From a virus: DNA of 27,591 nucleotides. Position numbers and translations under genes: made by a program. The DNA lies in the UHGV virus genome UHGV-0217794; one strand, given 5' to 3'. The notes under the pieces are model-generated. The model saw nothing but the letters and a program-made list of their open reading frames with translations. It was not told the origin of the DNA and did not search any database. Shown here in pieces: positions 9,644 to 24,593 of the stretch. How positions within the stretch are numbered: the first letter of the stretch is position 1; each line of letters opens with the position of its first letter.

Positions 9644-10177
9644 ATGAACGTAAAAGTCAAATACGGCCTGTCGGCTGCCGTTCTGGCGCTGATTGGTGCT
9701 GGTGCATCTGCTCCCCAGATACTTGACCAGTTTCTGGACGAAAAAGAAGGTAACCACACAATGGCATACCGTGATGGTTCCGGCATATGGACCATCTGTC
9801 GGGGTGCCACAGTGGTGGATGGAAAACCCGTTTTTCCCAATATGAAACTGTCGAAGGAAAAATGCGACCAGGTTAACGCTATTGAGCGTGATAAGGCTCT
9901 GGCATGGGTGGAGCGCAATATTAAAGTACCACTGACCGAACCACAAAAAGCGGGTATCGCGTCATTTTGTCCCTATAACATTGGCCCCGGTAAGTGTTTT
10001 CCGTCGACGTTTTATAAACGGCTGAATGCTGGTGATCGTAAAGGTGCATGCGAGGCGATTCGCTGGTGGATTAAGGACAGGGGGCGTGATTGCCGCATTC
10101 GTTCAAATAACTGTTACGGTCAGGTTATTCGTCGTGATCAGGAGAGCGCGTTAGTGTGCTGGGGGATCGACAGATAA
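9644..10177 (+). CDS. SAR endolysin (lysozyme, T4-lysozyme/R21-like with N-terminal signal-anchor-release domain)
   Basis: N-terminal Gly/Ala-rich weakly hydrophobic segment (GLSAAVLALIGAGASA) followed by a lysozyme-like domain; paired with a pinholin as in phage 21. Confidence 0.88.
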   Translation: MNVKVKYGLSAAVLALIGAGASAPQILDQFLDEKEGNHTMAYRDGSGIWTICRGATVVDGKPVFPNMKLSKEKCDQVNAIERDKALAWVERNIKVPLTEPQKAGIASFCPYNIGPGKCFPSTFYKRLNAGDRKGACEAIRWWIKDRGRDCRIRSNNCYGQVIRRDQESALVCWGIDR

Positions 10178-14859: not shown

Positions 14860-16367
14860 TGGCAATTCTTGATGATGTGATTGGCGTTTTTTCACCAGGA
14901 TGGAAAGCGGCAAGGCTGCGTTCCCGGGCGGTGATCCAGGCTTATGAGGCCGTAAAAACGACGCGGACACACAAAGCCCGGCGGGAAAACCGAACTGCCG
15001 ACCAGTTAAGCCTCTACGGGGCCGTGTCGTTACGTGAGCAGGCCCGTTACCTTGATAACAACCACGATCTGGTCATTGGTGTATTTGACAAGCTGGAAGA
15101 ACGGGTGGTGGGGAAAAACGGGATTATTGTCGAGCCACATCCGGTATTACGCAATGGGGCCATTGCCCGTGATCTGGCAGCGGAGATACGCACCCGATGG
15201 AGTGAATGGTCTGTCAGTCCGGAAGTTACCGGGCAGTTTACCCGTCCGATGCTGGAACGTCTGATGCTGCGTACCTGGCTGCGCGATGGTGAGGTGTTTG
15301 CCCAGATGGTTTCCGGGCGCATAAACAGCCTGACGCCTTCTGCCGGTGTTCATTTCTGGCTGGAGGCACTCGAGCCAGACTTTATTCCCATGACCAGTGA
15401 TGAGAGCAACAGGCTGAATCAGGGCGTGTTTGTTGATGACTGGGGGCGTCCCGAAAAATATCTGGTGTATAAAAGTCGTCCTGTATCCGGACGGCAGATG
15501 GAAACCAAAGAAGTGGATGCAGAGCGAATGCTGCATCTTAAATTTGTTCGCCGTCTGCACCAGATGCGCGGGACGTCTTTATTGTCCGGTGTGCTGATCC
15601 GCCTCAGTGCCCTGAAAGAATATGAAGATTCTGAGCTGACTGCAGCAAGGATCGCTGCTGCTCTGGGGATGTACATCCGCAAAGGCGACGGACAGAGCTA
15701 TGAAACGGATGGTAATGACAGCAAGGAGAATGAACGCGAGCTTACCATTCAGCCAGGCATTATTTACGACGATCTGAAACCCGGCGAAGAAATCGGAATG
15801 GTGAAGTCGGATCGCCCCAATCCTAACCTTGAAACTTTTCGTAATGGTCAGTTGCGTGCCGTGGCGGCGGGCAGTCGTCTGAGTTTTTCCAGTACAGCGC
15901 GCAACTATAACGGCACTTACAGCGCCCAGCGTCAGGAGCTGGTTGAATCCACTGATGGCTACCTGATCCTGCAGGACTGGTTTATTGGTGCCGTCACCCG
16001 CCCGATGTATCGTGCCTGGCTGAAACAGGCTGTGGCATCCGGTGTTATCAGGCTACCCCGCGATCTTGACCGTTCTTCACTGTATACCGCGGTGTATTCC
16101 GGACCGGTGATGCCGTGGATTGACCCTGTTAAGGAGGCTGAGGCCTGGAAAATTCAGATTCGTGGTGGAGCGGCGACAGAATCAGACTGGGTACGTGCAG
16201 GTGGTCGTAATCCGGATGATGTCAAACGTCGGCGCAAGGCAGAAATTGATGAAAACCGCAAGCTGGATCTGGTATTTGATACCGATCCGGCCAGTGATAA
16301 AGGAGGCAGCAGTGCCGCAACGAAACGACAGGAGCCGCAGCACACCGACGACCAGTCCGAAGAATAA
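14859..16367 (+). CDS. portal protein (lambda gpB-like)
   Basis: About 502 aa; ATG overlaps the W stop (TGATG); position between W and the prohead protease. Confidence 0.85.
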   Translation: MAILDDVIGVFSPGWKAARLRSRAVIQAYEAVKTTRTHKARRENRTADQLSLYGAVSLREQARYLDNNHDLVIGVFDKLEERVVGKNGIIVEPHPVLRNGAIARDLAAEIRTRWSEWSVSPEVTGQFTRPMLERLMLRTWLRDGEVFAQMVSGRINSLTPSAGVHFWLEALEPDFIPMTSDESNRLNQGVFVDDWGRPEKYLVYKSRPVSGRQMETKEVDAERMLHLKFVRRLHQMRGTSLLSGVLIRLSALKEYEDSELTAARIAAALGMYIRKGDGQSYETDGNDSKENERELTIQPGIIYDDLKPGEEIGMVKSDRPNPNLETFRNGQLRAVAAGSRLSFSSTARNYNGTYSAQRQELVESTDGYLILQDWFIGAVTRPMYRAWLKQAVASGVIRLPRDLDRSSLYTAVYSGPVMPWIDPVKEAEAWKIQIRGGAATESDWVRAGGRNPDDVKRRRKAEIDENRKLDLVFDTDPASDKGGSSAATKRQEPQHTDDQSEE

Positions 16368-16380
16368 TTCCTGGTTCAGG

Positions 16381-18339
16381 ATGCAGGCTGGTCACCAGAG
16401 TGACGCGGATATTTATATTTATGACGAGATTGGTTTCTGGGGTGTTACAGCGAAGCAGTTTATCAGTGATCTGAATGCACTGGGCGATATCACCCACATT
16501 AATCTCCATATCAATTCACCGGGTGGCGATGTCTTTGAAGGCATCGCCATTTTTAATGCGCTGAAAACACATGGTGCGTCCATTACCGTTTATGTCGACG
16601 GTGTGGCGGCGTCAATGGCGTCGGTCATTGCGATGGTGGGAAACCCGGTCATTATGCCGGAAAACACCTTCATGATGATTCATAAACCATTTGGCTTTAC
16701 GGGCGGTGATGCGGAGGACATGCGCACCTATGCCGACCTGCTCGATAAGGTTGAGGCGGTTCTGTTACCCGCTTATGCACAGAAAACCGGGAAAACCACC
16801 GATGAAATTGCTGCCATGCTGGCGGATGAGACCTGGATGTCCGGTGCCGAATGTCTGGCACATGGATTTGCTGATCAGGTGACGCCAGCCGTTAAGGCAA
16901 TGGCATGTATTCAGTCAAAACGTACAGAGGAATTTAAAAAGATGCCGGAATCCATTCGAAACATGATTACTCCGCCACGCAACAGTGCTCCACGCGTACA
17001 GGATGATGAACCTGCAGCCTCCCGGACGCCAGTGCAGGCAGCAGCACCCGTGGTGGATGAAAACAGTATCCGTGCGCAGGTACTGGCAGAGCAAAAAGCG
17101 CGTGTAAACGGTATTAATGATCTGTTTGCCATGTTTGGCGGGCGTTATCAGACGCTGCAGGCTCAGTGTCTTGCCGATCCTGAGTGTTCGCTGGAGCAGG
17201 CCCGCGAAAAGCTGTTGAACGAGATGGGGCGCGAGTCCACGCCATCCAATAAAAATACACCGGCTCATATTTATGCTGGTAACGGTAATTTTGTGGGGGA
17301 CGGGATCCGCCAGGCGCTGATGGCGCGTGCCGGATTTGAAAAAACCGAACGTGATAATGTCTACAACGGGATGACCCTGCGTGAATATGCCCGTATGTCA
17401 CTGACTGAACGGGGTATTGGGGTTTCCGGTTATAACCCGATGCAGATGGTCGGTGCGGCGTTCACCCACAGTACGTCTGACTTCGGTAATATTCTGCTGG
17501 ATGTTGCGAACAAAGCCATTCTGCAGGGCTGGGAAGATGCTCCTGAAACCTATGAACAATGGACGCGGAAAGGTCAGTTGTCTGATTTTAAAATTGCCCA
17601 TCGTGTGGGTATGGGGGGCTTCAGTGCTCTGCGTCAGGTGCGTGAAGGGGCGGAATATAAATACGTCACCACCGGAGATAAACAGGCCACTATTGCACTG
17701 GCGACCTATGGCGAGCTGTTCAGTATCACCCGTCAGGCCATTATCAATGATGATCTGAATATGCTGACCGATGTCCCGATGAAACTGGGCCGTGCGGCGA
17801 AATCCACTATTGCCGATCTGGTTTATGCCATTCTGACGTCTAACCCGAAAATCTCCACAGATAATGTAAGTCTGTTCGATAAAGCGAAACATGCAAACGT
17901 ACTGGAGAGCGCTGCAATGGACGTGGCATCGCTGGATAAAGCCCGCCAGTTGATGCGCGTTCAGAAAGAGGGGGAGCGTCATCTGAATATTCGTCCTGCG
18001 TTCGTACTGGTACCGACGGCGATGGAGTCTGTTGCTAACCAGGTCATTCGCTCCTCAAGTGTCAAGGGGGCTGACATTAACGCCGGTATTATTAACCCGG
18101 TGAAAGATTTTGCGACCGTTATTGCAGAGCCTCGTCTTGATGATAACAGCCAGACCACCTTCTACCTGGCTGCGTCAAAAGGCTCCGATACGATTGAAGT
18201 GGCTTATCTCAACGGTGTGGATACGCCATATATTGATCAGATGGAGGGCTTCAGTGTGGATGGCGTGACAACGAAAGTGCGTATTGACGCCGGTGTCGCG
18301 CCAGTTGATCACCGCGGTCTGGTGAAATGTACGGCGTAA
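16381..18339 (+). CDS. prohead protease (ClpP/S14-like) - scaffold-like linker - major capsid protein, single fused ORF (652 aa)
   Basis: N-terminus has ClpP-type motifs (YDEIGFWGV ... INSPGGDV ... VAASMASVIAM); central coiled-coil-like segment; C-terminal about 350 aa capsid-like; no in-frame stop between domains. Confidence 0.75.
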   Translation: MQAGHQSDADIYIYDEIGFWGVTAKQFISDLNALGDITHINLHINSPGGDVFEGIAIFNALKTHGASITVYVDGVAASMASVIAMVGNPVIMPENTFMMIHKPFGFTGGDAEDMRTYADLLDKVEAVLLPAYAQKTGKTTDEIAAMLADETWMSGAECLAHGFADQVTPAVKAMACIQSKRTEEFKKMPESIRNMITPPRNSAPRVQDDEPAASRTPVQAAAPVVDENSIRAQVLAEQKARVNGINDLFAMFGGRYQTLQAQCLADPECSLEQAREKLLNEMGRESTPSNKNTPAHIYAGNGNFVGDGIRQALMARAGFEKTERDNVYNGMTLREYARMSLTERGIGVSGYNPMQMVGAAFTHSTSDFGNILLDVANKAILQGWEDAPETYEQWTRKGQLSDFKIAHRVGMGGFSALRQVREGAEYKYVTTGDKQATIALATYGELFSITRQAIINDDLNMLTDVPMKLGRAAKSTIADLVYAILTSNPKISTDNVSLFDKAKHANVLESAAMDVASLDKARQLMRVQKEGERHLNIRPAFVLVPTAMESVANQVIRSSSVKGADINAGIINPVKDFATVIAEPRLDDNSQTTFYLAASKGSDTIEVAYLNGVDTPYIDQMEGFSVDGVTTKVRIDAGVAPVDHRGLVKCTA

Positions 18340-20017: not shown

Positions 20018-20027
20018 GGAGGTGGTA

Positions 20028-20771
20028 ATGACCACACCAAATCCACTGGCAAAGACGAAAGGTGCGGGGACGACGTTCTGGATGTATACCGGCAACGGCG
20101 ATGCGTTTGCGAACCCTTTGTCGGACACTGACTGGCTGCGTCTTGCGATGGTGAAGGATCTGCAACCTGGCGAAATGACCGCTGATGCAGAAGATGACAC
20201 TTATCTCGATGATGAAGATGCAGACTGGAAAACGACAACCCAGGGGCAGAAATCCGTTGGTGATACTTCGGCGACGCTGGCCTGGCGTCCGGGTGACAGC
20301 GGGCAGAAAAAACTGGTTCAGTTGTTCGACTCCGGTGAAGTCTGCGCGTTTCGTATCAAATATCCCAACGGCACTGTTGATGTTTTCCGTGGCTGGCTGA
20401 GCTCACTGGGTAAAACCATTGCCTCAAAAGACGTGATGACCCGCACTGTGAAAATCAGCGGTGTGGGGCGTCCGTATCTGGCAGAGGAAGGCACTGAAAC
20501 CGTGAGCGTTACCGGGCTGACAGTATCACCGGCGTCTGCCAATGTAAAAGTGGGAGCAACCACCACGCTGACCTTTACAGTAAAACCTGACGGAGCCAGT
20601 GACAAAGCGATCAGTGTGCATTCGTCAGATCCACAGACTGCCACGGTTACCCTGAACGGACTTGTGGCCACGGTAAAAGGCGTGAAGCAGGGCAGTGTCA
20701 GCATTGTGGGCATGACCGCTGACGGGAATTTTGTGGCTGTGACTGCGGTGACTGTCAGCGCAGCAGGTTAA
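20028..20771 (+). CDS. major tail protein V (lambda gpV-like, C-terminal Ig-like domain)
   Basis: KGAGTTFWMYTGNGDAFANPLSD ... YLDDEDADW ... NGTVDVFRGW conserved relative to lambda V; GGAGGTGG RBS. Confidence 0.9.
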   Translation: MTTPNPLAKTKGAGTTFWMYTGNGDAFANPLSDTDWLRLAMVKDLQPGEMTADAEDDTYLDDEDADWKTTTQGQKSVGDTSATLAWRPGDSGQKKLVQLFDSGEVCAFRIKYPNGTVDVFRGWLSSLGKTIASKDVMTRTVKISGVGRPYLAEEGTETVSVTGLTVSPASANVKVGATTTLTFTVKPDGASDKAISVHSSDPQTATVTLNGLVATVKGVKQGSVSIVGMTADGNFVAVTAVTVSAAG

Positions 20772-20791: not shown

Positions 20792-20815
20792 GCCCCGGTT
20801 ATGCGGGGCTTTTTT
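20792..20815 (+). terminator. intrinsic terminator/attenuator after the major tail gene (stem GCCCCG/CGGGGC, T6)
   Basis: 6-bp GC stem plus TTTTTT, 14 nt before the G start codon. Confidence 0.5.
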
Positions 20816-20828
20816 GCAGGTGGAGAAC

Positions 20829-21218
20829 ATGATGTTTCTGAAACAGGACACGTTTAATTATGAAAAACAGTCCGTGGTGCTCAGTGAGCTGTCCGGGCTG
20901 CAGAGAATTGAATATCTGACGTTTGTTCAGCAGCGAACGGCAAAGTTTGATGCCGTGGAGGGAGAACTGCCGGAGGCTGAACGACAGATTGCTTTTCTGC
21001 GGATGGGGATGGATATCAATGCCTGGCTGGTTTCCCGCTCACTGTGGAATGCGGATCAGTCTAAGGATGTAGAGACGCTTTGCGCATCCGTTATTACAAC
21101 ATGGTCGTATGATGCCCTGGGTGCGGGGGCGGAGATGGTTCTGTCGCTGAGCGGTATGGGGGCCATTGATAATGCCGTGGATGATGAGCATGAGGCGCTG
21201 ACGCCGGAAAAGTCCTGA
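20829..21218 (+). CDS. tail assembly chaperone G (lambda gpG-like)
   Basis: MMFLKQDTFNYEKQSVVLSELSGLQRIEYL parallels lambda G (MFLKTESFEHNGVTVTLSELSALQRIEHL); start may be ATG 20829 or 20832. Confidence 0.85.
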   Translation: MMFLKQDTFNYEKQSVVLSELSGLQRIEYLTFVQQRTAKFDAVEGELPEAERQIAFLRMGMDINAWLVSRSLWNADQSKDVETLCASVITTWSYDALGAGAEMVLSLSGMGAIDNAVDDEHEALTPEKS

Positions 21219-21556
21219 CGCGGGAAATGCAGTTTGTCATGCGGCTTGCCCGGGAGTTCCGGCGGGCAGACTGGCGGCGGATGCTGTCGGAAATGTCGGC
21301 CACTGAGCTTGGTGAGTGGGGCGATTATTTCCGGATGCAGAGCTTCAGTGATGTGTGGATGGATGCGCAGTTTGCCTCGCTGAAGGCATTGATCGTGAGA
21401 ATGGTGTCCGGCAGCAGTGATGCTGCGGTGGCTGATTTCAGCCTTTTACCGGAAGAGAACGGGATACCGGAGCGAACGGACGAAGAACTGATGCATCTTG
21501 GGGAAGGTATTTCCGGAGGTGTGCGTTATGGACCAGATAGCCAACCTGGTCATTGA
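21194..21556 (+). CDS. tail assembly chaperone T segment, expressed as G-T fusion by programmed -1 frameshift near the end of G
   Basis: The -1 frame relative to G opens at 21194 (stops at 21167, 21170, 21182, 21185 and 21191 close it upstream) and overlaps only the last 7 codons of G; a conserved G/T arrangement in lambdoid tail gene clusters. Confidence 0.7.
   Translation, partial: GADAGKVLTREMQFVMRLAREFRRADWRRMLSEMSATELGEWGDYFRMQSFSDVWMDAQFASLKALIVRMVSGSSDAAVADFSLLPEENGIPERTDEELMHLGEGISGGVRYGPDSQPGH
21206..21212 (+). other. putative -1 frameshift slippery site G-GAA-AAG
   Basis: The only place the shift can occur is 21194-21215; this heptamer is lambda's G-GGA-AAG with one substitution. 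Confidence 0.4.
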
Positions 21557-24500
21557 TTTGGGGATTGATGCGGCAGAGTTTAAAAATGAAATTCCCCGTA
21601 TCAAAAACCTTCTGAATGGTGCAGCCAGCGATGCAGAACGGTCTTCTGCCCGTATGCAGCGTTTTATGGAGCGTCAGACTCAGGCCGCCCGGCAGACAAC
21701 GCAGGCAGCTTCTTCGGCTGCAACAGCCGCATCCGTCCATGCGCAGACGGTGGAGAAGAACGCACAGGCTCATGAACGCATGGCCCGCGAGGTGGAGAAA
21801 ACCCGCCAGCGCATGGAGGCACTGAGCCAGAAAATGCGCGAGGAACAGGCGCAGGCCATCGCTCTGGCGGAGGCTCAGGATAAAGCGGCTGCTGCGTTTT
21901 ATCGTCAGATTGACAGTGTGAAACAGGCCAGTGCGGGGCTGCAGGAATTACAGCGTATTCAGCAGCAGATCCGACAGGCCAGAAACAGTGGCGGGATTGG
22001 TCAGCAGGATTATCTGGCGCTGATTTCTGAGGTTACGGCGAAAACCCGTGTTCTTACGCAGGCTGAGGCAGAGGCTACCCGACAGAAAGTGGCGTTTATC
22101 CGTCAGCTTAAAGAGCAGGCAACCCGCCAGAATCTTTCTTCTTCTGAGTTGCTTCGTGCCAGGGCTGCCCAGCTGGGGGTAAGCAGTGCTGCAGAAGTGT
22201 ATATCCGCAAAATGGAGCGGGCAGGAAAAGCCACGCATTCGCTGGGTCTGAAAAGTGCAGCGGCCCGCCAGGAGATAGGCGTTCTGATAGGTGAACTGGC
22301 CCGCGGCAATTTAGGGGCGCTGAGGGGATCCGGGATAACGCTGGCTAACCGTGCCGGATGGATAGACACACTGATGTCACCGAAAGGCATGATGCTGGGC
22401 GGGGTTATTGGCGGTATTACCGCGGCCGTCTATGGTCTGGGTAAAGCCTGGTATGACGGTCAGAAGGAGGGGGAAGAATTTAACCGCCAGCTGTCGCTGA
22501 CGGGGCATTATGCCGGAGTCACTGCCGGGCAGCTGTGGACGCTCAGTCGTGCTATTTCCGGGAATGGTATCACGCAACATGCTGCAGCCGGTGCGCTGGC
22601 TCAGGTGGTGGGGAGTGGTGCATTTCGTGGAAACGATATCGGTATGGTGGCGAGAGCTGCCGCACAGATGGAGCGATCGGTTGGCCAGTCGGTCAGCGAT
22701 ACCATAAATCAGTTTAAGCGGCTGAAGGATGATCCTGTAAATGCCGCGAAGTCTCTGGACAATGAGCTGCATTTTCTTACTGCCACTCAGCTTGAGCAGA
22801 TACGCGTCCTTGGAGAGCAGGGGCGGTCCAGTGATGCGGCACGGATAGCCATGTCTGCACTGGCAGAGGAAACCGGTCGGCGTACTGCGGATATTGATAA
22901 TAACCTCAATGCGCTGGGCAGTACGCTGCAAACTTTGTCTGACTGGTGGAAGCAGTTCTGGGATGCGGCCATGAATATTGGTCGTGAAGATTCGCTGGAT
23001 GCGCAGATTGCCACTTTGCAGGAGAAAGTGTCGCGGGCGAAAAGACTCCCCTGGACGGCATCATCTTCTCAGGTTGAATACGATCAGCAGCGTCTTAACG
23101 ATCTTCAGGAGAAAAAACGCCAGAAGGATTTGCAGGATGCAAAAGAGCAGGCAGAGCGGAATTATCAGGAGCAACAGAAACGCCGTAATGCTGAAAATGC
23201 TGCACTGAACCGGATGAATGAAACGGAAGCTGCACGACATCAGCGTGAAATTGCGCGTATTAATGCCATGCAGTACGCCGATCAGGCTGTCAGGGATGCG
23301 GCGATACAACGTGAAAATGAACGTTACGAGAAAGCCCTGGCATCCGGTAAGAAAAAAACACGCGAAACCCGTAATGATGAGGCCACCCGGTTATTGCTGC
23401 AGTACAGTCAGCAACAGGCACAGGTGGAAGGACAGATTGCTGCTGCCAGACAGTCAGCAGGCATTGCCACGGAAAGGATGACAGAAGCGCATAAACAGCT
23501 CCTGGCTCTGCAGCAGCGCATCAGCGACCTGGACGGGAAAAAACTGACGGCAGATGAAAAGAGTGTGCTGGCCCGTAAAGATGAACTGATTCAGGCACTG
23601 ACGCTGCTGGATGTAAAACAGCAGGAGCTTCAGAAACAGACGGCACTCAACGAGCTGAAGAAAAAAACAATTCAGCTGACCAGTCAACTGGCTGAAGAAG
23701 AGCGCGCTCAGCGTCAGCAACATGACCTGGATATCGCCACGGTGGGTATGGGTGATCAGCAGCGACAGCGATATCAGGTACAACTGAGTCTTCGCCAGAA
23801 ATACCAGCAACAGCTGGAGCAGTTGAGGCGGGATAGTGAGCAGAAAGGGACATATAACACGGATGACTACAGAAAGGCCGAGCAGGCGCTGACGGAGAGC
23901 CTGAACCGACAACTGAATGAGAATCGCCGTTACTGGCAACAGCTTGAAGTTGTGCAGGGTAACTGGAAAAACGGAGTCCTGCGTGCATTTCAGGATTTTA
24001 CCGTGGATGCAGATAATACGGCAGAAACAGCAGAACAGGTGTTCTCGTCAGCCTTCAGCAACATGGGAAATGGCCTGGCAACTTTTGTCACTACCGGCAA
24101 ACTCAATTTCAAATCCTTCACCTCTTCTGTGCTGTCAGATATGGCGAAAATCCTGGCGCAGGCAACCATGATGAAATCGATAAAAGGGATTGGCAGTGTA
24201 CTGGGATTTGATCTCAGCAGCCTTTCCCTGAATGCCAATGGGGGGATTTATCAGTCTGCTGATTTGAGTCGTTACAGTGGCACGGTGGTTAACCGTCCGA
24301 CGTTTTTTGCTTTTGCAAAAGGCGCGGGTGTGATGGGGGAAGCGGGACCTGAAGCCATTCTGCCATTGCGTCGTGGTGCTGACGGTAAGCTGGGGGTTGT
24401 GGCGGATATTGGGGGTTCAGGTATGGCGATGTTTTCCCCGCAGTACAACATCGAGATCAATAACGATGGCACGAACGGGCAGATAGGTCCGGCTGCCCTG

Positions 24501-24593
24501 AAGGTGGTTTATGACCTTGGGAAAAAAGCGGCAGCGGACTTTATGCAACAGCAGGCCCGTGATGGTGGTCGGTTAAGTGGAGCATATCGGTAA
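21528..24593 (+). CDS. tail tape measure protein (lambda gpH-like)
   Basis: About 1021-aa protein, long Ala/Gln/Arg-rich coiled-coil regions, position between G-T and M; GGAGG RBS. Confidence 0.9.
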   Translation: MDQIANLVIDLGIDAAEFKNEIPRIKNLLNGAASDAERSSARMQRFMERQTQAARQTTQAASSAATAASVHAQTVEKNAQAHERMAREVEKTRQRMEALSQKMREEQAQAIALAEAQDKAAAAFYRQIDSVKQASAGLQELQRIQQQIRQARNSGGIGQQDYLALISEVTAKTRVLTQAEAEATRQKVAFIRQLKEQATRQNLSSSELLRARAAQLGVSSAAEVYIRKMERAGKATHSLGLKSAAARQEIGVLIGELARGNLGALRGSGITLANRAGWIDTLMSPKGMMLGGVIGGITAAVYGLGKAWYDGQKEGEEFNRQLSLTGHYAGVTAGQLWTLSRAISGNGITQHAAAGALAQVVGSGAFRGNDIGMVARAAAQMERSVGQSVSDTINQFKRLKDDPVNAAKSLDNELHFLTATQLEQIRVLGEQGRSSDAARIAMSALAEETGRRTADIDNNLNALGSTLQTLSDWWKQFWDAAMNIGREDSLDAQIATLQEKVSRAKRLPWTASSSQVEYDQQRLNDLQEKKRQKDLQDAKEQAERNYQEQQKRRNAENAALNRMNETEAARHQREIARINAMQYADQAVRDAAIQRENERYEKALASGKKKTRETRNDEATRLLLQYSQQQAQVEGQIAAARQSAGIATERMTEAHKQLLALQQRISDLDGKKLTADEKSVLARKDELIQALTLLDVKQQELQKQTALNELKKKTIQLTSQLAEEERAQRQQHDLDIATVGMGDQQRQRYQVQLSLRQKYQQQLEQLRRDSEQKGTYNTDDYRKAEQALTESLNRQLNENRRYWQQLEVVQGNWKNGVLRAFQDFTVDADNTAETAEQVFSSAFSNMGNGLATFVTTGKLNFKSFTSSVLSDMAKILAQATMMKSIKGIGSVLGFDLSSLSLNANGGIYQSADLSRYSGTVVNRPTFFAFAKGAGVMGEAGPEAILPLRRGADGKLGVVADIGGSGMAMFSPQYNIEINNDGTNGQIGPAALKVVYDLGKKAAADFMQQQARDGGRLSGAYR

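What the first reader, a model, noticed from the sequence alone, without database searches (positions are those of the whole stretch)
21194..21218. G-T programmed frameshift with a non-canonical slippery heptamer
The T frame is closed by five stops just upstream, so the -1 shift that makes the G-T fusion must occur within 21194-21215. The only candidate heptamer there is G-GAA-AAG, not lambda's canonical G-GGA-AAG. Re-pairing of the P-site tRNA-Glu to GGA would need a G-U wobble in the middle position, implying lower efficiency than lambda.
Basis: seen in the sequence. Interest (0 to 1): 0.45.

Follow-up and report, generated by a model that had tools for sequence, protein, structure and literature searches.

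The report
Phage tail G-T frameshift, N15-type heptamer
This is the ordinary lambda-style programmed -1 frameshift that fuses the two tail-assembly chaperone genes G and T. It uses the slightly imperfect slip sequence G_GAA_AAG, which phage N15's GenBank record already annotates as a slippery sequence and which is shared by a large group of enterobacterial prophages.

Summary
G (20832-21218) ends at TGA 21216. The -1 (T) frame is closed by five stops (21167, 21170, 21182, 21185, 21191) and opens at 21194. The only slip-prone sequence in the 22-nt overlap is G_GAA_AAG (21206-21212).

The window is an mEp460/cdtI-like lambdoid E. coli phage. Its G, T, V and H proteins hit the lambda Pfam families, and the predicted G-T fusion aligns with lambda gpGT straight across the junction.

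Comparison with relatives supports the heptamer. In 252 related loci, 241 carry G_GAA_AAG at the position of lambda's G_GGA_AAG. The codon before GAA encodes Pro, Ala, Val or Leu but ends in G in 33 of 34 representative lineages. This argues that tRNA-Glu re-pairs on GGA.

T-frame residues are conserved immediately after the heptamer. The ATG that databases annotate as the start of T is not conserved.

I found no conserved downstream RNA structure. An SD-like GAGG 10 nt upstream is no more frequent than the amino-acid sequence alone predicts.

This is not new. N15's GenBank record annotates the same GGAAAAG as the "slippery sequence for -1 translational frameshift". Efficiency has not been measured, as far as I could find. 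One in vitro study used G GAA AAG as its poorly slippery construct, so a rate below lambda's is plausible.

The parts
20025..20771 (+). Major tail protein V homologue; upstream neighbour that sets the gene-order context
   Evidence: PF16461 Phage_TTP_12 at 1.2e-66 plus Big_2. Annotated as major tail protein in mEp460, PhiR55_1 and Ayreon.
20792..20816 (+). Intrinsic-terminator-like hairpin plus T-run between V and G
   Evidence: GCCCCGGTTATGCGGGGC followed by TTTTTTGCAG. The equivalent site is annotated as a rho-independent terminator or stem-loop in mEp460, N15 and HK225.
20832..21218 (+). Gene G, the tail assembly chaperone and zero-frame product (128 aa; an alternative ATG lies at 20829)
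   Evidence: PF06894 Phage_TAC_2 at 5.8e-40. ORF and stop read directly. PGAP names it 'phage tail assembly chaperone G'.
21192..21195 (+). SD-like GAGG, 10 nt upstream of the heptamer (dnaX-like spacing). A candidate stimulator only; not established.
   Evidence: Anti-SD duplex of -4 kcal/mol or stronger at spacing 7-12 nt in 12 of 18 stop-adjacent lineages, against 6-7 of 18 at other spacings. Synonymous-codon resampling gives P = 0.18-0.21, so the enrichment is not beyond what the amino-acid sequence predicts.
21194..21215 (+). The only stretch where both the G frame and the T (-1) frame are open; the shift must occur here
   Evidence: The -1 frame stop at 21191-21193 and the G stop at 21216-21218.
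21206..21212 (+). Slip site G_GAA_AAG (P-site GAA to GGA, A-site AAG to AAA)
   Evidence: Present in 241 of 252 related loci at the position of lambda's G_GGA_AAG. The preceding codon's third base is G in 33 of 34 lineages across Pro, Ala, Val and Leu. The same 7-mer is annotated as the slippery sequence in N15, NC_001901 10027-10033.
21212..21556 (+). T-frame part of the G-T fusion (114 aa after the shift: VLTREMQFVMRLAREF...). The predicted fusion is 20832-21212 joined to 21212-21556, 241 aa.
   Evidence: PF06223 Phage_tail_T at 5e-15. T-frame residues x-L-x-x-E-x-x-F directly after the heptamer are conserved, including in lambda (VFDGELSF). The annotated start ATG 21227 is not conserved.
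21528..24593 (+). Tape measure protein H homologue; downstream neighbour
   Evidence: PF06791, PF09718 and PF24622.

Best explanation
A small fraction of ribosomes translating gene G slip back one base on G_GAA_AAG (21206-21212). They then continue in the T frame to 21556, making a 241-aa G-T fusion alongside the abundant 128-aa G protein. This is what lambda gpG/gpGT does for tail assembly on the tape-measure protein. The most likely mechanism is tandem slippage. The A-site tRNA-Lys moves from AAG to the better-pairing AAA. The P-site tRNA-Glu moves from GAA to near-cognate GGA, with G-C at position 1, G.U at position 2 and A-U at position 3. Shown here: the frames, the gene identities, the homologous position, the nucleotide-level conservation of the heptamer, and the absence of a conserved independent T start. 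Inferred: that the shift happens at all in this phage, that P-site re-pairing contributes, and that efficiency is low (probably at or below lambda's few per cent) and needs no RNA stimulator. The stated confidence applies to the -1 G-T frameshift at this site; my confidence that P-site re-pairing contributes is about 0.7.
For: Frames and stops were read directly. Pfam assigns G, T, V and H to the lambda families. The fusion aligns colinearly with lambda gpGT at 33% identity and E = 3e-42, with the slip-site Lys aligned. All full-length G homologues listed (57-97% identity; about 100) end in P-E-K plus one residue, while the preceding residues are hypervariable. At the DNA level, loci from Citrobacter, Symbiopectobacterium, Buttiauxella, Enterobacter, Salmonella Fels-1, N15, HK225, mEp237, mEp043 and Flotzy all carry NNG GAA AAG. 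Heptamer counts in 252 loci are G_GAA_AAG 241, G_GGA_AAG 8, A_AAA_AAG 1, G_GCA_AAG 1 and A_GAA_AAG 1. The third base of the preceding codon is G in 33 of 34 lineages (CCG 16, GCG 16, GTG 1, CTG 1, and one GCA exception). Neighbouring codons have G there in only 15-18 of 34, and the G genes' own codon usage predicts 0.36-0.67. T-frame Leu/Val, Glu and Phe just after the heptamer are conserved, whereas ATG 21227 is replaced by CTG, CGT, ATT, CGG, CAA, ATA, GTT or ACC in relatives. Gene callers start T at varied positions. N15's record annotates GGAAAAG as the slippery sequence. Bock et al. 2019 report that a purine-pyrimidine A.U to G.U change is a modest penalty and that the A-site G.S to A.S change is favourable (PMC6787027).
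Against: I found no experimental measurement for this heptamer in any G-T system. Xu et al. 2004, Ravin et al. 2000 and Licznar et al. 2003 were not readable here. In a reconstituted system AUG GAA AAG gave mainly zero-frame product with wild-type EF-G and was called unfavourable for slippage (PMC6924986). Bare Z_ZZN tetramers are near background in vivo without a stimulator (0.147% against 0.112%; PMC4066793), and I found no conserved stimulator. The lineages counted are related, so 33 of 34 is not 34 independent trials, and CCG, GCG and CTG are preferred codons anyway.
Confidence: 0.88

Rival explanations
1. Single-tRNA slippage. Only tRNA-Lys slips on the tetramer A_AAG (the hexanucleotide NNA_AAG mode known from IS1222 and B. 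subtilis cdd). The P-site tRNA-Glu does not re-pair, and the conserved upstream G is incidental. The product is the same G-T fusion.
For: A_AAG is the most shift-prone tetramer in E. coli (PMC4066793). NNA_AAG sites are used naturally (Atkins et al. 2016, PMC5009743). [quoted passage not shown] Two natural variants keep A_AAG but lose the heptamer context, G_GCA_AAG (L224) and A_GAA_AAG (L230), both with intact G and T frames.
Against: The base before GAA is G in 33 of 34 lineages across four different amino acids, while adjacent third positions vary freely. GAA itself is invariant although the surrounding tail is hypervariable. By the review's account, the hexamer mode works best when the 5' codon's tRNA is wobble-prone. 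From general knowledge, mnm5s2U34 tRNA-Glu is not wobble-prone. The two exceptions are singletons.
Confidence: 0.15
2. No frameshift. T is translated on its own from ATG 21227, as GenBank and PGAP records annotate it, and G and T act as separate proteins.
For: mEp460, PhiR55_1 and RefSeq E. coli genomes annotate T as a separate CDS from this ATG. An ATG at 21239-21241 is invariant in 17 stop-adjacent lineages.
Against: ATG 21227 is not conserved in relatives, and conserved T-frame residues (L, E) lie upstream of it. Read directly from the sequence, neither ATG has a well-spaced SD: GGGAA ends 1 nt before 21227, and CAGTTTGTC precedes 21239. Gene callers choose different starts in different relatives. 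PGAP annotates lambda's own T the same way although its frameshift is experimentally established, so the annotation reflects convention (Levin et al. 1993 as cited). The heptamer's nucleotide-level conservation would be unexplained.
Confidence: 0.04
3. Stimulated frameshift. In the stop-adjacent clade (this window, cdtI, Fels-1 and others) the weak heptamer is boosted by an SD-like element about 10 nt upstream (GAGG 21192-21195) that pairs with 16S rRNA, as in E. coli dnaX.
For: The spacing is exactly 10 nt, as in dnaX (sequence read directly; dnaX spacing from general knowledge). SD-like 8-mers at spacing 7-12 nt occur in 12 of 18 stop-adjacent lineages, against 6-7 of 18 at other spacings and 1 of 15 in N15-like lineages.
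Against: Synonymous-codon resampling that preserves the protein sequence gives 10.1 of 18 on average (P = 0.21; mean-energy P = 0.18), so there is no signal beyond the acidic Glu/Ala-rich amino-acid sequence. Six of 18 lineages lack it. Lambda needs no stimulator (from memory of Levin et al. 1993).
Confidence: 0.15
4. Transcriptional slippage on the A-run, or a shift elsewhere in 21194-21215.
For: None specific. The heptamer contains a run of four A residues.
Against: From general knowledge, four A residues is far below the roughly 8-9 needed for productive RNA polymerase slippage. None of the other zero-frame codons in the overlap (GCG, CTG, ACG, CCG, TCC) can re-pair in the -1 frame.
Confidence: 0.01

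Closest known systems
Phage lambda gpG/gpGT programmed -1 frameshift (Levin, Hendrix & Casjens 1993; Xu, Hendrix & Duda 2004, 2013, 2014)
   Same: Same gene order (V-G-T-H) and the same Pfam families. The slip site is at the homologous position, and the shift is -1 into a T frame that has no start of its own. The fusions align colinearly.
   Different: Lambda has the canonical G_GGA_AAG; this window has G_GAA_AAG, one transition away (Gly to Glu). In lambda the G stop lies five codons after the heptamer; here it lies one codon after. The T part is 114 aa here against 144 aa in lambda.
Phage N15 genes 14/15 (NC_001901, misc_feature 'slippery sequence for -1 translational frameshift')
   Same: The identical heptamer GGAAAAG at the homologous site (GCG GAA AAG) is explicitly annotated as the slip site. 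It is shared with HK225, mEp237, mEp043 and Flotzy.
   Different: N15-type G proteins are only about 31% identical to this one. They have Ala rather than Pro before the Glu, and five more codons before the stop. I could not establish whether the N15 site was ever tested experimentally.
E. coli dnaX A_AAA_AAG frameshift
   Same: Both shifts are -1, driven by E. coli's single tRNA-Lys preferring AAA over AAG. An SD-like element sits 10 nt upstream in both sequences.
   Different: dnaX has perfect P-site re-pairing, a proven SD stimulator and a downstream stem-loop, and shifts at about 50-80%. Here the P site is near-cognate, there is no conserved structure, and the SD-like element is statistically unsupported.
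Hexanucleotide NNA_AAG sites (IS1222 G_CGA_AAG, B. subtilis cdd A_CGA_AAG; Licznar et al. 2003)
   Same: A non-X_XXY_YYZ site built on A_AAG, in which the 5' codon modulates efficiency.
   Different: Those sites rely on a wobble-prone tRNA-Arg in the P site. Here the P-site tRNA can form two Watson-Crick pairs plus a G.U pair in the -1 frame, and the base that allows this is conserved.
Mycobacteriophage tail-chaperone motif GGGGGAA (PRFect paper, PMC10885494)
   Same: The same proposed re-pairing of tRNA-Glu from GAA to GGA through a central G:U pair, also in tail assembly chaperone frameshifts.
   Different: There tRNA-Glu is the 3' (A-site) tRNA, and the host is Actinobacteria. That motif is also only an annotation-based inference.

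Membership tests
Lambda-type G/GT tail assembly chaperone -1 frameshift | Two overlapping ORFs located between the major tail protein gene and the tape-measure gene | tested here: met
   V 20025-20771, G 20832-21218, T frame 21194-21556, H 21528-24593.
Lambda-type G/GT tail assembly chaperone -1 frameshift | The upstream ORF is a gpG homologue and the downstream frame is a gpT homologue | tested here: met
   PF06894 at 5.8e-40 and PF06223 at 5e-15. The fusion aligns with lambda gpGT at E = 3e-42.
Lambda-type G/GT tail assembly chaperone -1 frameshift | The downstream ORF is in the -1 frame and lacks a conserved start and SD of its own | tested here: met
   Frame offset is -1. ATG 21227 is not conserved, and conserved T-frame residues precede it. 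Called starts vary among relatives.
Lambda-type G/GT tail assembly chaperone -1 frameshift | Canonical X_XXY_YYZ slippery heptamer in the overlap | tested here: not met
   G_GAA_AAG fails the XXX requirement (G-G-A), and no canonical heptamer exists in 21194-21215. This is a feature of the textbook motif, not of the G/GT family as such, since N15 is accepted with the same site.
Lambda-type G/GT tail assembly chaperone -1 frameshift | A slip-prone sequence conserved at the homologous position across relatives | tested here: met
   241 of 252 loci carry G_GAA_AAG, and the rest carry G_GGA_AAG, A_AAA_AAG or single-base variants, all at the same codon positions.
Lambda-type G/GT tail assembly chaperone -1 frameshift | Both G and a minor G-T fusion are actually produced, at a ratio of about 30:1 in lambda | not testable with these tools
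   This needs a Western blot, a reporter or mass spectrometry. I found no published measurement.
N15-type G_GAA_AAG slip site | The exact heptamer GGAAAAG, with GAA and AAG as zero-frame codons, near the end of the G homologue | tested here: met
   Window 21206-21212 matches N15 10027-10033 (L111 1299-1305).
dnaX-type stimulated -1 frameshift | A functional upstream SD-like stimulator and a downstream stem-loop | tested here: inconclusive
   GAGG is present at 10-nt spacing, but its enrichment is not beyond amino-acid expectation (P about 0.2). Downstream folding gives z = 0.01 and -0.97, with no covariation in 17 lineages.

The most novel reading that the evidence does not exclude
The stop-adjacent clade (this window, cdtI, mEp460 and Fels-1-like prophages, present in about a third of complete E. 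coli genomes) compensates for an intrinsically weak, near-cognate heptamer with a dnaX-like SD:anti-SD interaction 10 nt upstream. If so, G_GAA_AAG would be a natural, tunable low-efficiency slip site that sets a G:GT ratio different from lambda's. It would also be the first G-T frameshift with an rRNA-pairing stimulator.
Probability: 0.12. Interest if true: 0.45.

Novelty: already known. Interest (0 to 1): 0.2.

Why it matters
Practically, it exposes an annotation gap. This G-T pair occurs at 95% identity or better in 1846 of 5426 complete E. coli genomes, and every record I inspected lists T as a stand-alone CDS from a non-conserved ATG rather than as a frameshift fusion.

Scientifically, there is a modest point of interest. 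A heptamer that one biochemical study used as its poorly slippery construct (PMC6924986) is nevertheless conserved base for base in nature, including the first G, whose only evident role is to let tRNA-Glu re-pair through a central G.U. That makes it a convenient natural test case for how much P-site near-cognate pairing contributes to -1 frameshifting, and for how low a G-T level tail assembly tolerates.

It does not change the established picture of G/GT chaperones.

Tried and rejected
(1) Downstream stimulatory RNA structure. Single-sequence folds are no better than shuffles (z = 0.01 for 21213-21300 and -0.97 for 21170-21270). RNAalifold on 17 diverged lineages gives -2.16 kcal/mol with no compensatory pairs. 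Rejected.

(2) Upstream SD-like stimulator. There is a positional dip in anti-SD pairing energy in the stop-adjacent clade, but it does not exceed synonymous-resampling expectation (P about 0.2). Left as inconclusive.

(3) Other slip sites in 21194-21215. None of the other codons can re-pair in the -1 frame.

(4) Independent initiation of T. Rejected because the start is not conserved and coding conservation extends upstream of it.

(5) Close relatives as evidence. The first IMG/VR scan returned 80 near-identical loci, which were uninformative. Three apparent in-frame G-T loci (L004-L006) turned out to carry indels inside G or T, with the junction unchanged.

(6) Literature on experimental tests of G_GAA_AAG in a phage. 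Full-text searches found none. Licznar et al. 2003 and Xu et al. 2013/2014 were not held. Xu et al. 2004 and Ravin et al. 2000 are not in the library, so I cannot say whether N15's site was tested.

(7) The genome-contig scan returned only 14 loci, but those were the most informative diverged ones.

Full report
**What is in the sequence**

Reading the window directly confirms each element of the observation.
- An ORF in the G frame runs from ATG 20832 (an alternative ATG lies at 20829) to TGA 21216-21218. It ends ...GAG GCG CTG ACG CCG GAA AAG TCC TGA.
- The -1 frame carries stops at 21167, 21170, 21182, 21185 and 21191. It is then open from 21194 to 21556.
- The third frame is closed at 21199 and 21304.
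- The two frames therefore overlap only at 21194-21215.
- Within that stretch the only codon whose tRNA can re-pair one base back is AAG (to AAA). The heptamer G_GAA_AAG lies at 21206-21212.
- The bare 7-mer occurs 10 times in the window against 4.7 expected. Its position and frame, not its presence, are what matter.

**What the genes are**

Pfam assigns four adjacent genes to the lambda tail families.
- 20832-21215: Phage_TAC_2, lambda gpG, at 5.8e-40.
- The -1 frame 21194-21553: Phage_tail_T at 5e-15.
- The upstream gene: the lambda tail tube protein plus Big_2.
- The downstream gene: the lambda-type tape measure protein.

The DNA is 97.6-99.9% identical to Escherichia phages PhiR55_1, mEp460, cdtI, Ayreon and others. 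It occurs at 95% identity or better in 1846 of 5426 complete E. coli genomes.

GenBank and PGAP annotate G and T as separate CDSs, with T starting at the ATG equivalent to 21227 or further downstream, and with no slippage join. PGAP treats lambda's own T in the same way, so this is an annotation convention and not evidence against a frameshift. Ayreon's annotators already call the second gene 'GpGT-like'.

**Is the heptamer the slip site? Comparative evidence**

Close relatives are too similar to be informative: 80 IMG/VR loci all carry CCGGAAAAGTC. Diverged relatives are informative.

- *Protein level.* All full-length G homologues listed (57-97% identity; about 100) end in P-E-K plus one residue, while the ten residues before that are hypervariable.
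- *DNA level.* Loci from Citrobacter, Symbiopectobacterium, Buttiauxella, Enterobacter, Salmonella phage Fels-1 and twelve further lineages all read NNG GAA AAG.
- *N15-like phages.* N15, HK225, mEp237, mEp043, Flotzy and Enterobacter MStein have G proteins only about 31-35% identical to this one. They carry GCG GAA AAG five codons before the stop, which is exactly where lambda carries GCG GGA AAG.

Heptamer counts in the 252 analysable loci:

| Heptamer | Loci |
|---|---|
| G_GAA_AAG | 241 (155 with the stop one codon later, 86 with it five codons later) |
| G_GGA_AAG | 8 |
| A_AAA_AAG (an Stx2d phage) | 1 |
| G_GCA_AAG | 1 |
| A_GAA_AAG | 1 |

These counts are biased by my choice of search seeds. 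In E. coli genomes the lambda type is in fact the commoner: 3704 genomes against 1846 for this type and 31 for the N15 type.

**Heptamer or mere tetramer?**

The key test is the base before GAA. It is not translated in the T frame if the shift occurs here, so only the slip mechanism should constrain it.

I took 34 representative lineages that are under 80% identical in the 60 nt upstream. The preceding codon is CCG (16), GCG (16), GTG (1), CTG (1) or GCA (1). That is four amino acids, with the third base G in 33 of 34. The third positions of the six codons further upstream are G in only 7-18 of 34 (15-18 of 34 in the four nearest codons). The G genes' own codon usage predicts G at 0.36-0.67.

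The lineages are related, so this is not a formal probability. The pattern is nevertheless what tandem slippage predicts. The G lets tRNA-Glu (anticodon mnm5s2U-U-C, from established knowledge) form G-C, G.U and A-U on GGA.

The thermodynamic model of Bock et al. gives a modest penalty for a purine-pyrimidine A.U to G.U change in the P site. It finds the A-site G.S to A.S change favourable (PMC6787027).

**Is T made independently?**

Evidence against an independent start comes from an alignment of 17 diverged stop-adjacent lineages.
- The T-frame residues immediately after the heptamer follow x-(L/V)-x-x-E-x-x-F. This matches lambda's VFDGELSF.
- The annotated ATG 21227 is replaced in relatives by CTG, CGT, ATT, CGG, CAA, ATA, GTT or ACC.
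- Gene callers begin T 9 to 63 nt after the G stop in different relatives.
- The fusion predicted from a slip at 21206-21212 (...ALTPEK-VLTREMQF...) aligns with lambda gpGT in a single alignment across the junction, at 33% identity and E = 3e-42.

A second ATG at 21239-21241 is invariant in this clade. It has no SD and is Leu in lambda.

**Stimulators**

- *Downstream structure.* The downstream sequence folds no better than shuffles (z = 0.01 and -0.97). RNAalifold finds no conserved or covarying structure.
- *Upstream SD-like element.* GAGG (21192-21195) sits exactly 10 nt before the heptamer, the dnaX spacing. SD-like 8-mers at spacing 7-12 nt occur in 12 of 18 stop-adjacent lineages. That compares with 6-7 of 18 at other spacings and 1 of 15 in N15-like lineages.
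- *Control.* When I resampled synonymous codons while keeping the protein sequence, 10.1 of 18 were expected (P about 0.2). The enrichment therefore follows from the acidic Glu/Ala-rich tail. I record it as inconclusive.

**Efficiency**

I found no measurement for this heptamer in a G-T context.
- Peng et al. used AUG GAA AAG as their 'less slippery' mRNA. They called it unfavourable because of the second-position mismatch, and saw mainly zero-frame product with wild-type EF-G (PMC6924986).
- Sharma et al. found tetramers alone near background in vivo, with A_AAG reaching 5.6% only when followed by a pseudoknot (PMC4066793).

Lambda needs only a 30:1 ratio of G to GT (Atkins et al. 2016, PMC5009743).

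**Comparison with what is known, and novelty**

The system is a member of the lambda G/GT family on every feature I could test, except the textbook X_XXY_YYZ form of the heptamer.

That deviation is not new. The GenBank record of phage N15 (NC_001901) carries a misc_feature 'slippery sequence for -1 translational frameshift' at 10027-10033. I read its sequence as GGAAAAG. HK225's record refers to the N15 'translational frameshift product'. The PRFect paper also describes non-XXXYYYZ motifs in tail chaperone frameshifts, including a tRNA-Glu GAA to GGA re-pairing through G:U (PMC10885494).

I therefore rate the finding as already known. It is a correct reading of an unannotated copy of a known site.

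**Verdict**

| Item | Assessment |
|---|---|
| Observation | Confirmed |
| Interpretation | Supported |
| Novelty | Already known |
| Interest | 0.2 |

The residual interest is that a sequence one biochemical study used as its poorly slippery construct is conserved base for base in about a third of complete E. coli genomes. That makes it a good natural substrate for testing near-cognate P-site re-pairing.

Noticed in passing
window 20792-20816: A strong intrinsic-terminator-like hairpin (GCCCCGG...CGGGGC plus T6) sits between the major tail gene V and G. The equivalent site is annotated as a terminator or stem-loop in mEp460, N15 and HK225. It may lower G/T/H transcription relative to V.
   Followed up: partly
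window 16219-18339: A single long ORF combines a ClpP-type protease domain (PF00574, 3e-36) with a phage capsid domain (PF25209, 1.3e-54), i.e. a protease-major capsid fusion.
   Followed up: partly
L224 (about 1095-1101) and L230 (about 1110-1116): Two natural single-base variants of the slip site occur: G_GCA_AAG (Ala instead of Glu) and A_GAA_AAG (first G lost). Each is a singleton, has intact G and T frames, and sits next to close relatives carrying G_GAA_AAG. They could be natural tests of which heptamer positions matter, or defective prophages.
   Followed up: partly
L101 (Stx2d-converting phage Stx2_112808), G tail TCA AAA AAG: The same G/T family also uses the dnaX-type heptamer A_AAA_AAG at the homologous codon positions. 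Three different heptamers therefore occupy one site across the family.
   Followed up: no
L096 (Enterobacter sp. TMH.L2), G tail GCG GAA AAG CCC TGA CCA GCG AGC TTA: An N15-type tail in which TTG/TCG has become TGA, so the G stop falls one codon after the heptamer. This is an independent origin of the window's stop-adjacent geometry, and it suggests the last four G residues are dispensable.
   Followed up: no
N15-like loci (for example L105, L109, L111, L199-L236), 7-12 nt upstream of the heptamer: SD-like sequences appear depleted upstream of the heptamer: 1 of 15 lineages against 3.7 expected from synonymous resampling, and the observed mean pairing energy is weaker than in all 2000 resamples. 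This is the opposite trend to the stop-adjacent clade.
   Followed up: partly
window 21239-21241: The T-frame ATG (the Met in FVMRLAREF) is invariant in 17 diverged stop-adjacent lineages and is Met in the N15-like phages examined, but Leu in lambda. No SD precedes it.
   Followed up: partly
L004, L005, L006 (IMG/VR): These copies carry indels inside G (L005, L006) or early in the T frame (L004) that break the reading frame, while the junction sequence is intact. They are either decaying prophages or assembly errors.
   Followed up: partly
RefSeq E. coli genomes (for example L114, L269, L270): PGAP annotates 'phage tail assembly protein T' as a stand-alone CDS for the mEp460, lambda and N15 types alike, and as a pseudogene in one N15-type case. 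It never annotates a ribosomal-slippage join. This affects thousands of genomes.
   Followed up: partly
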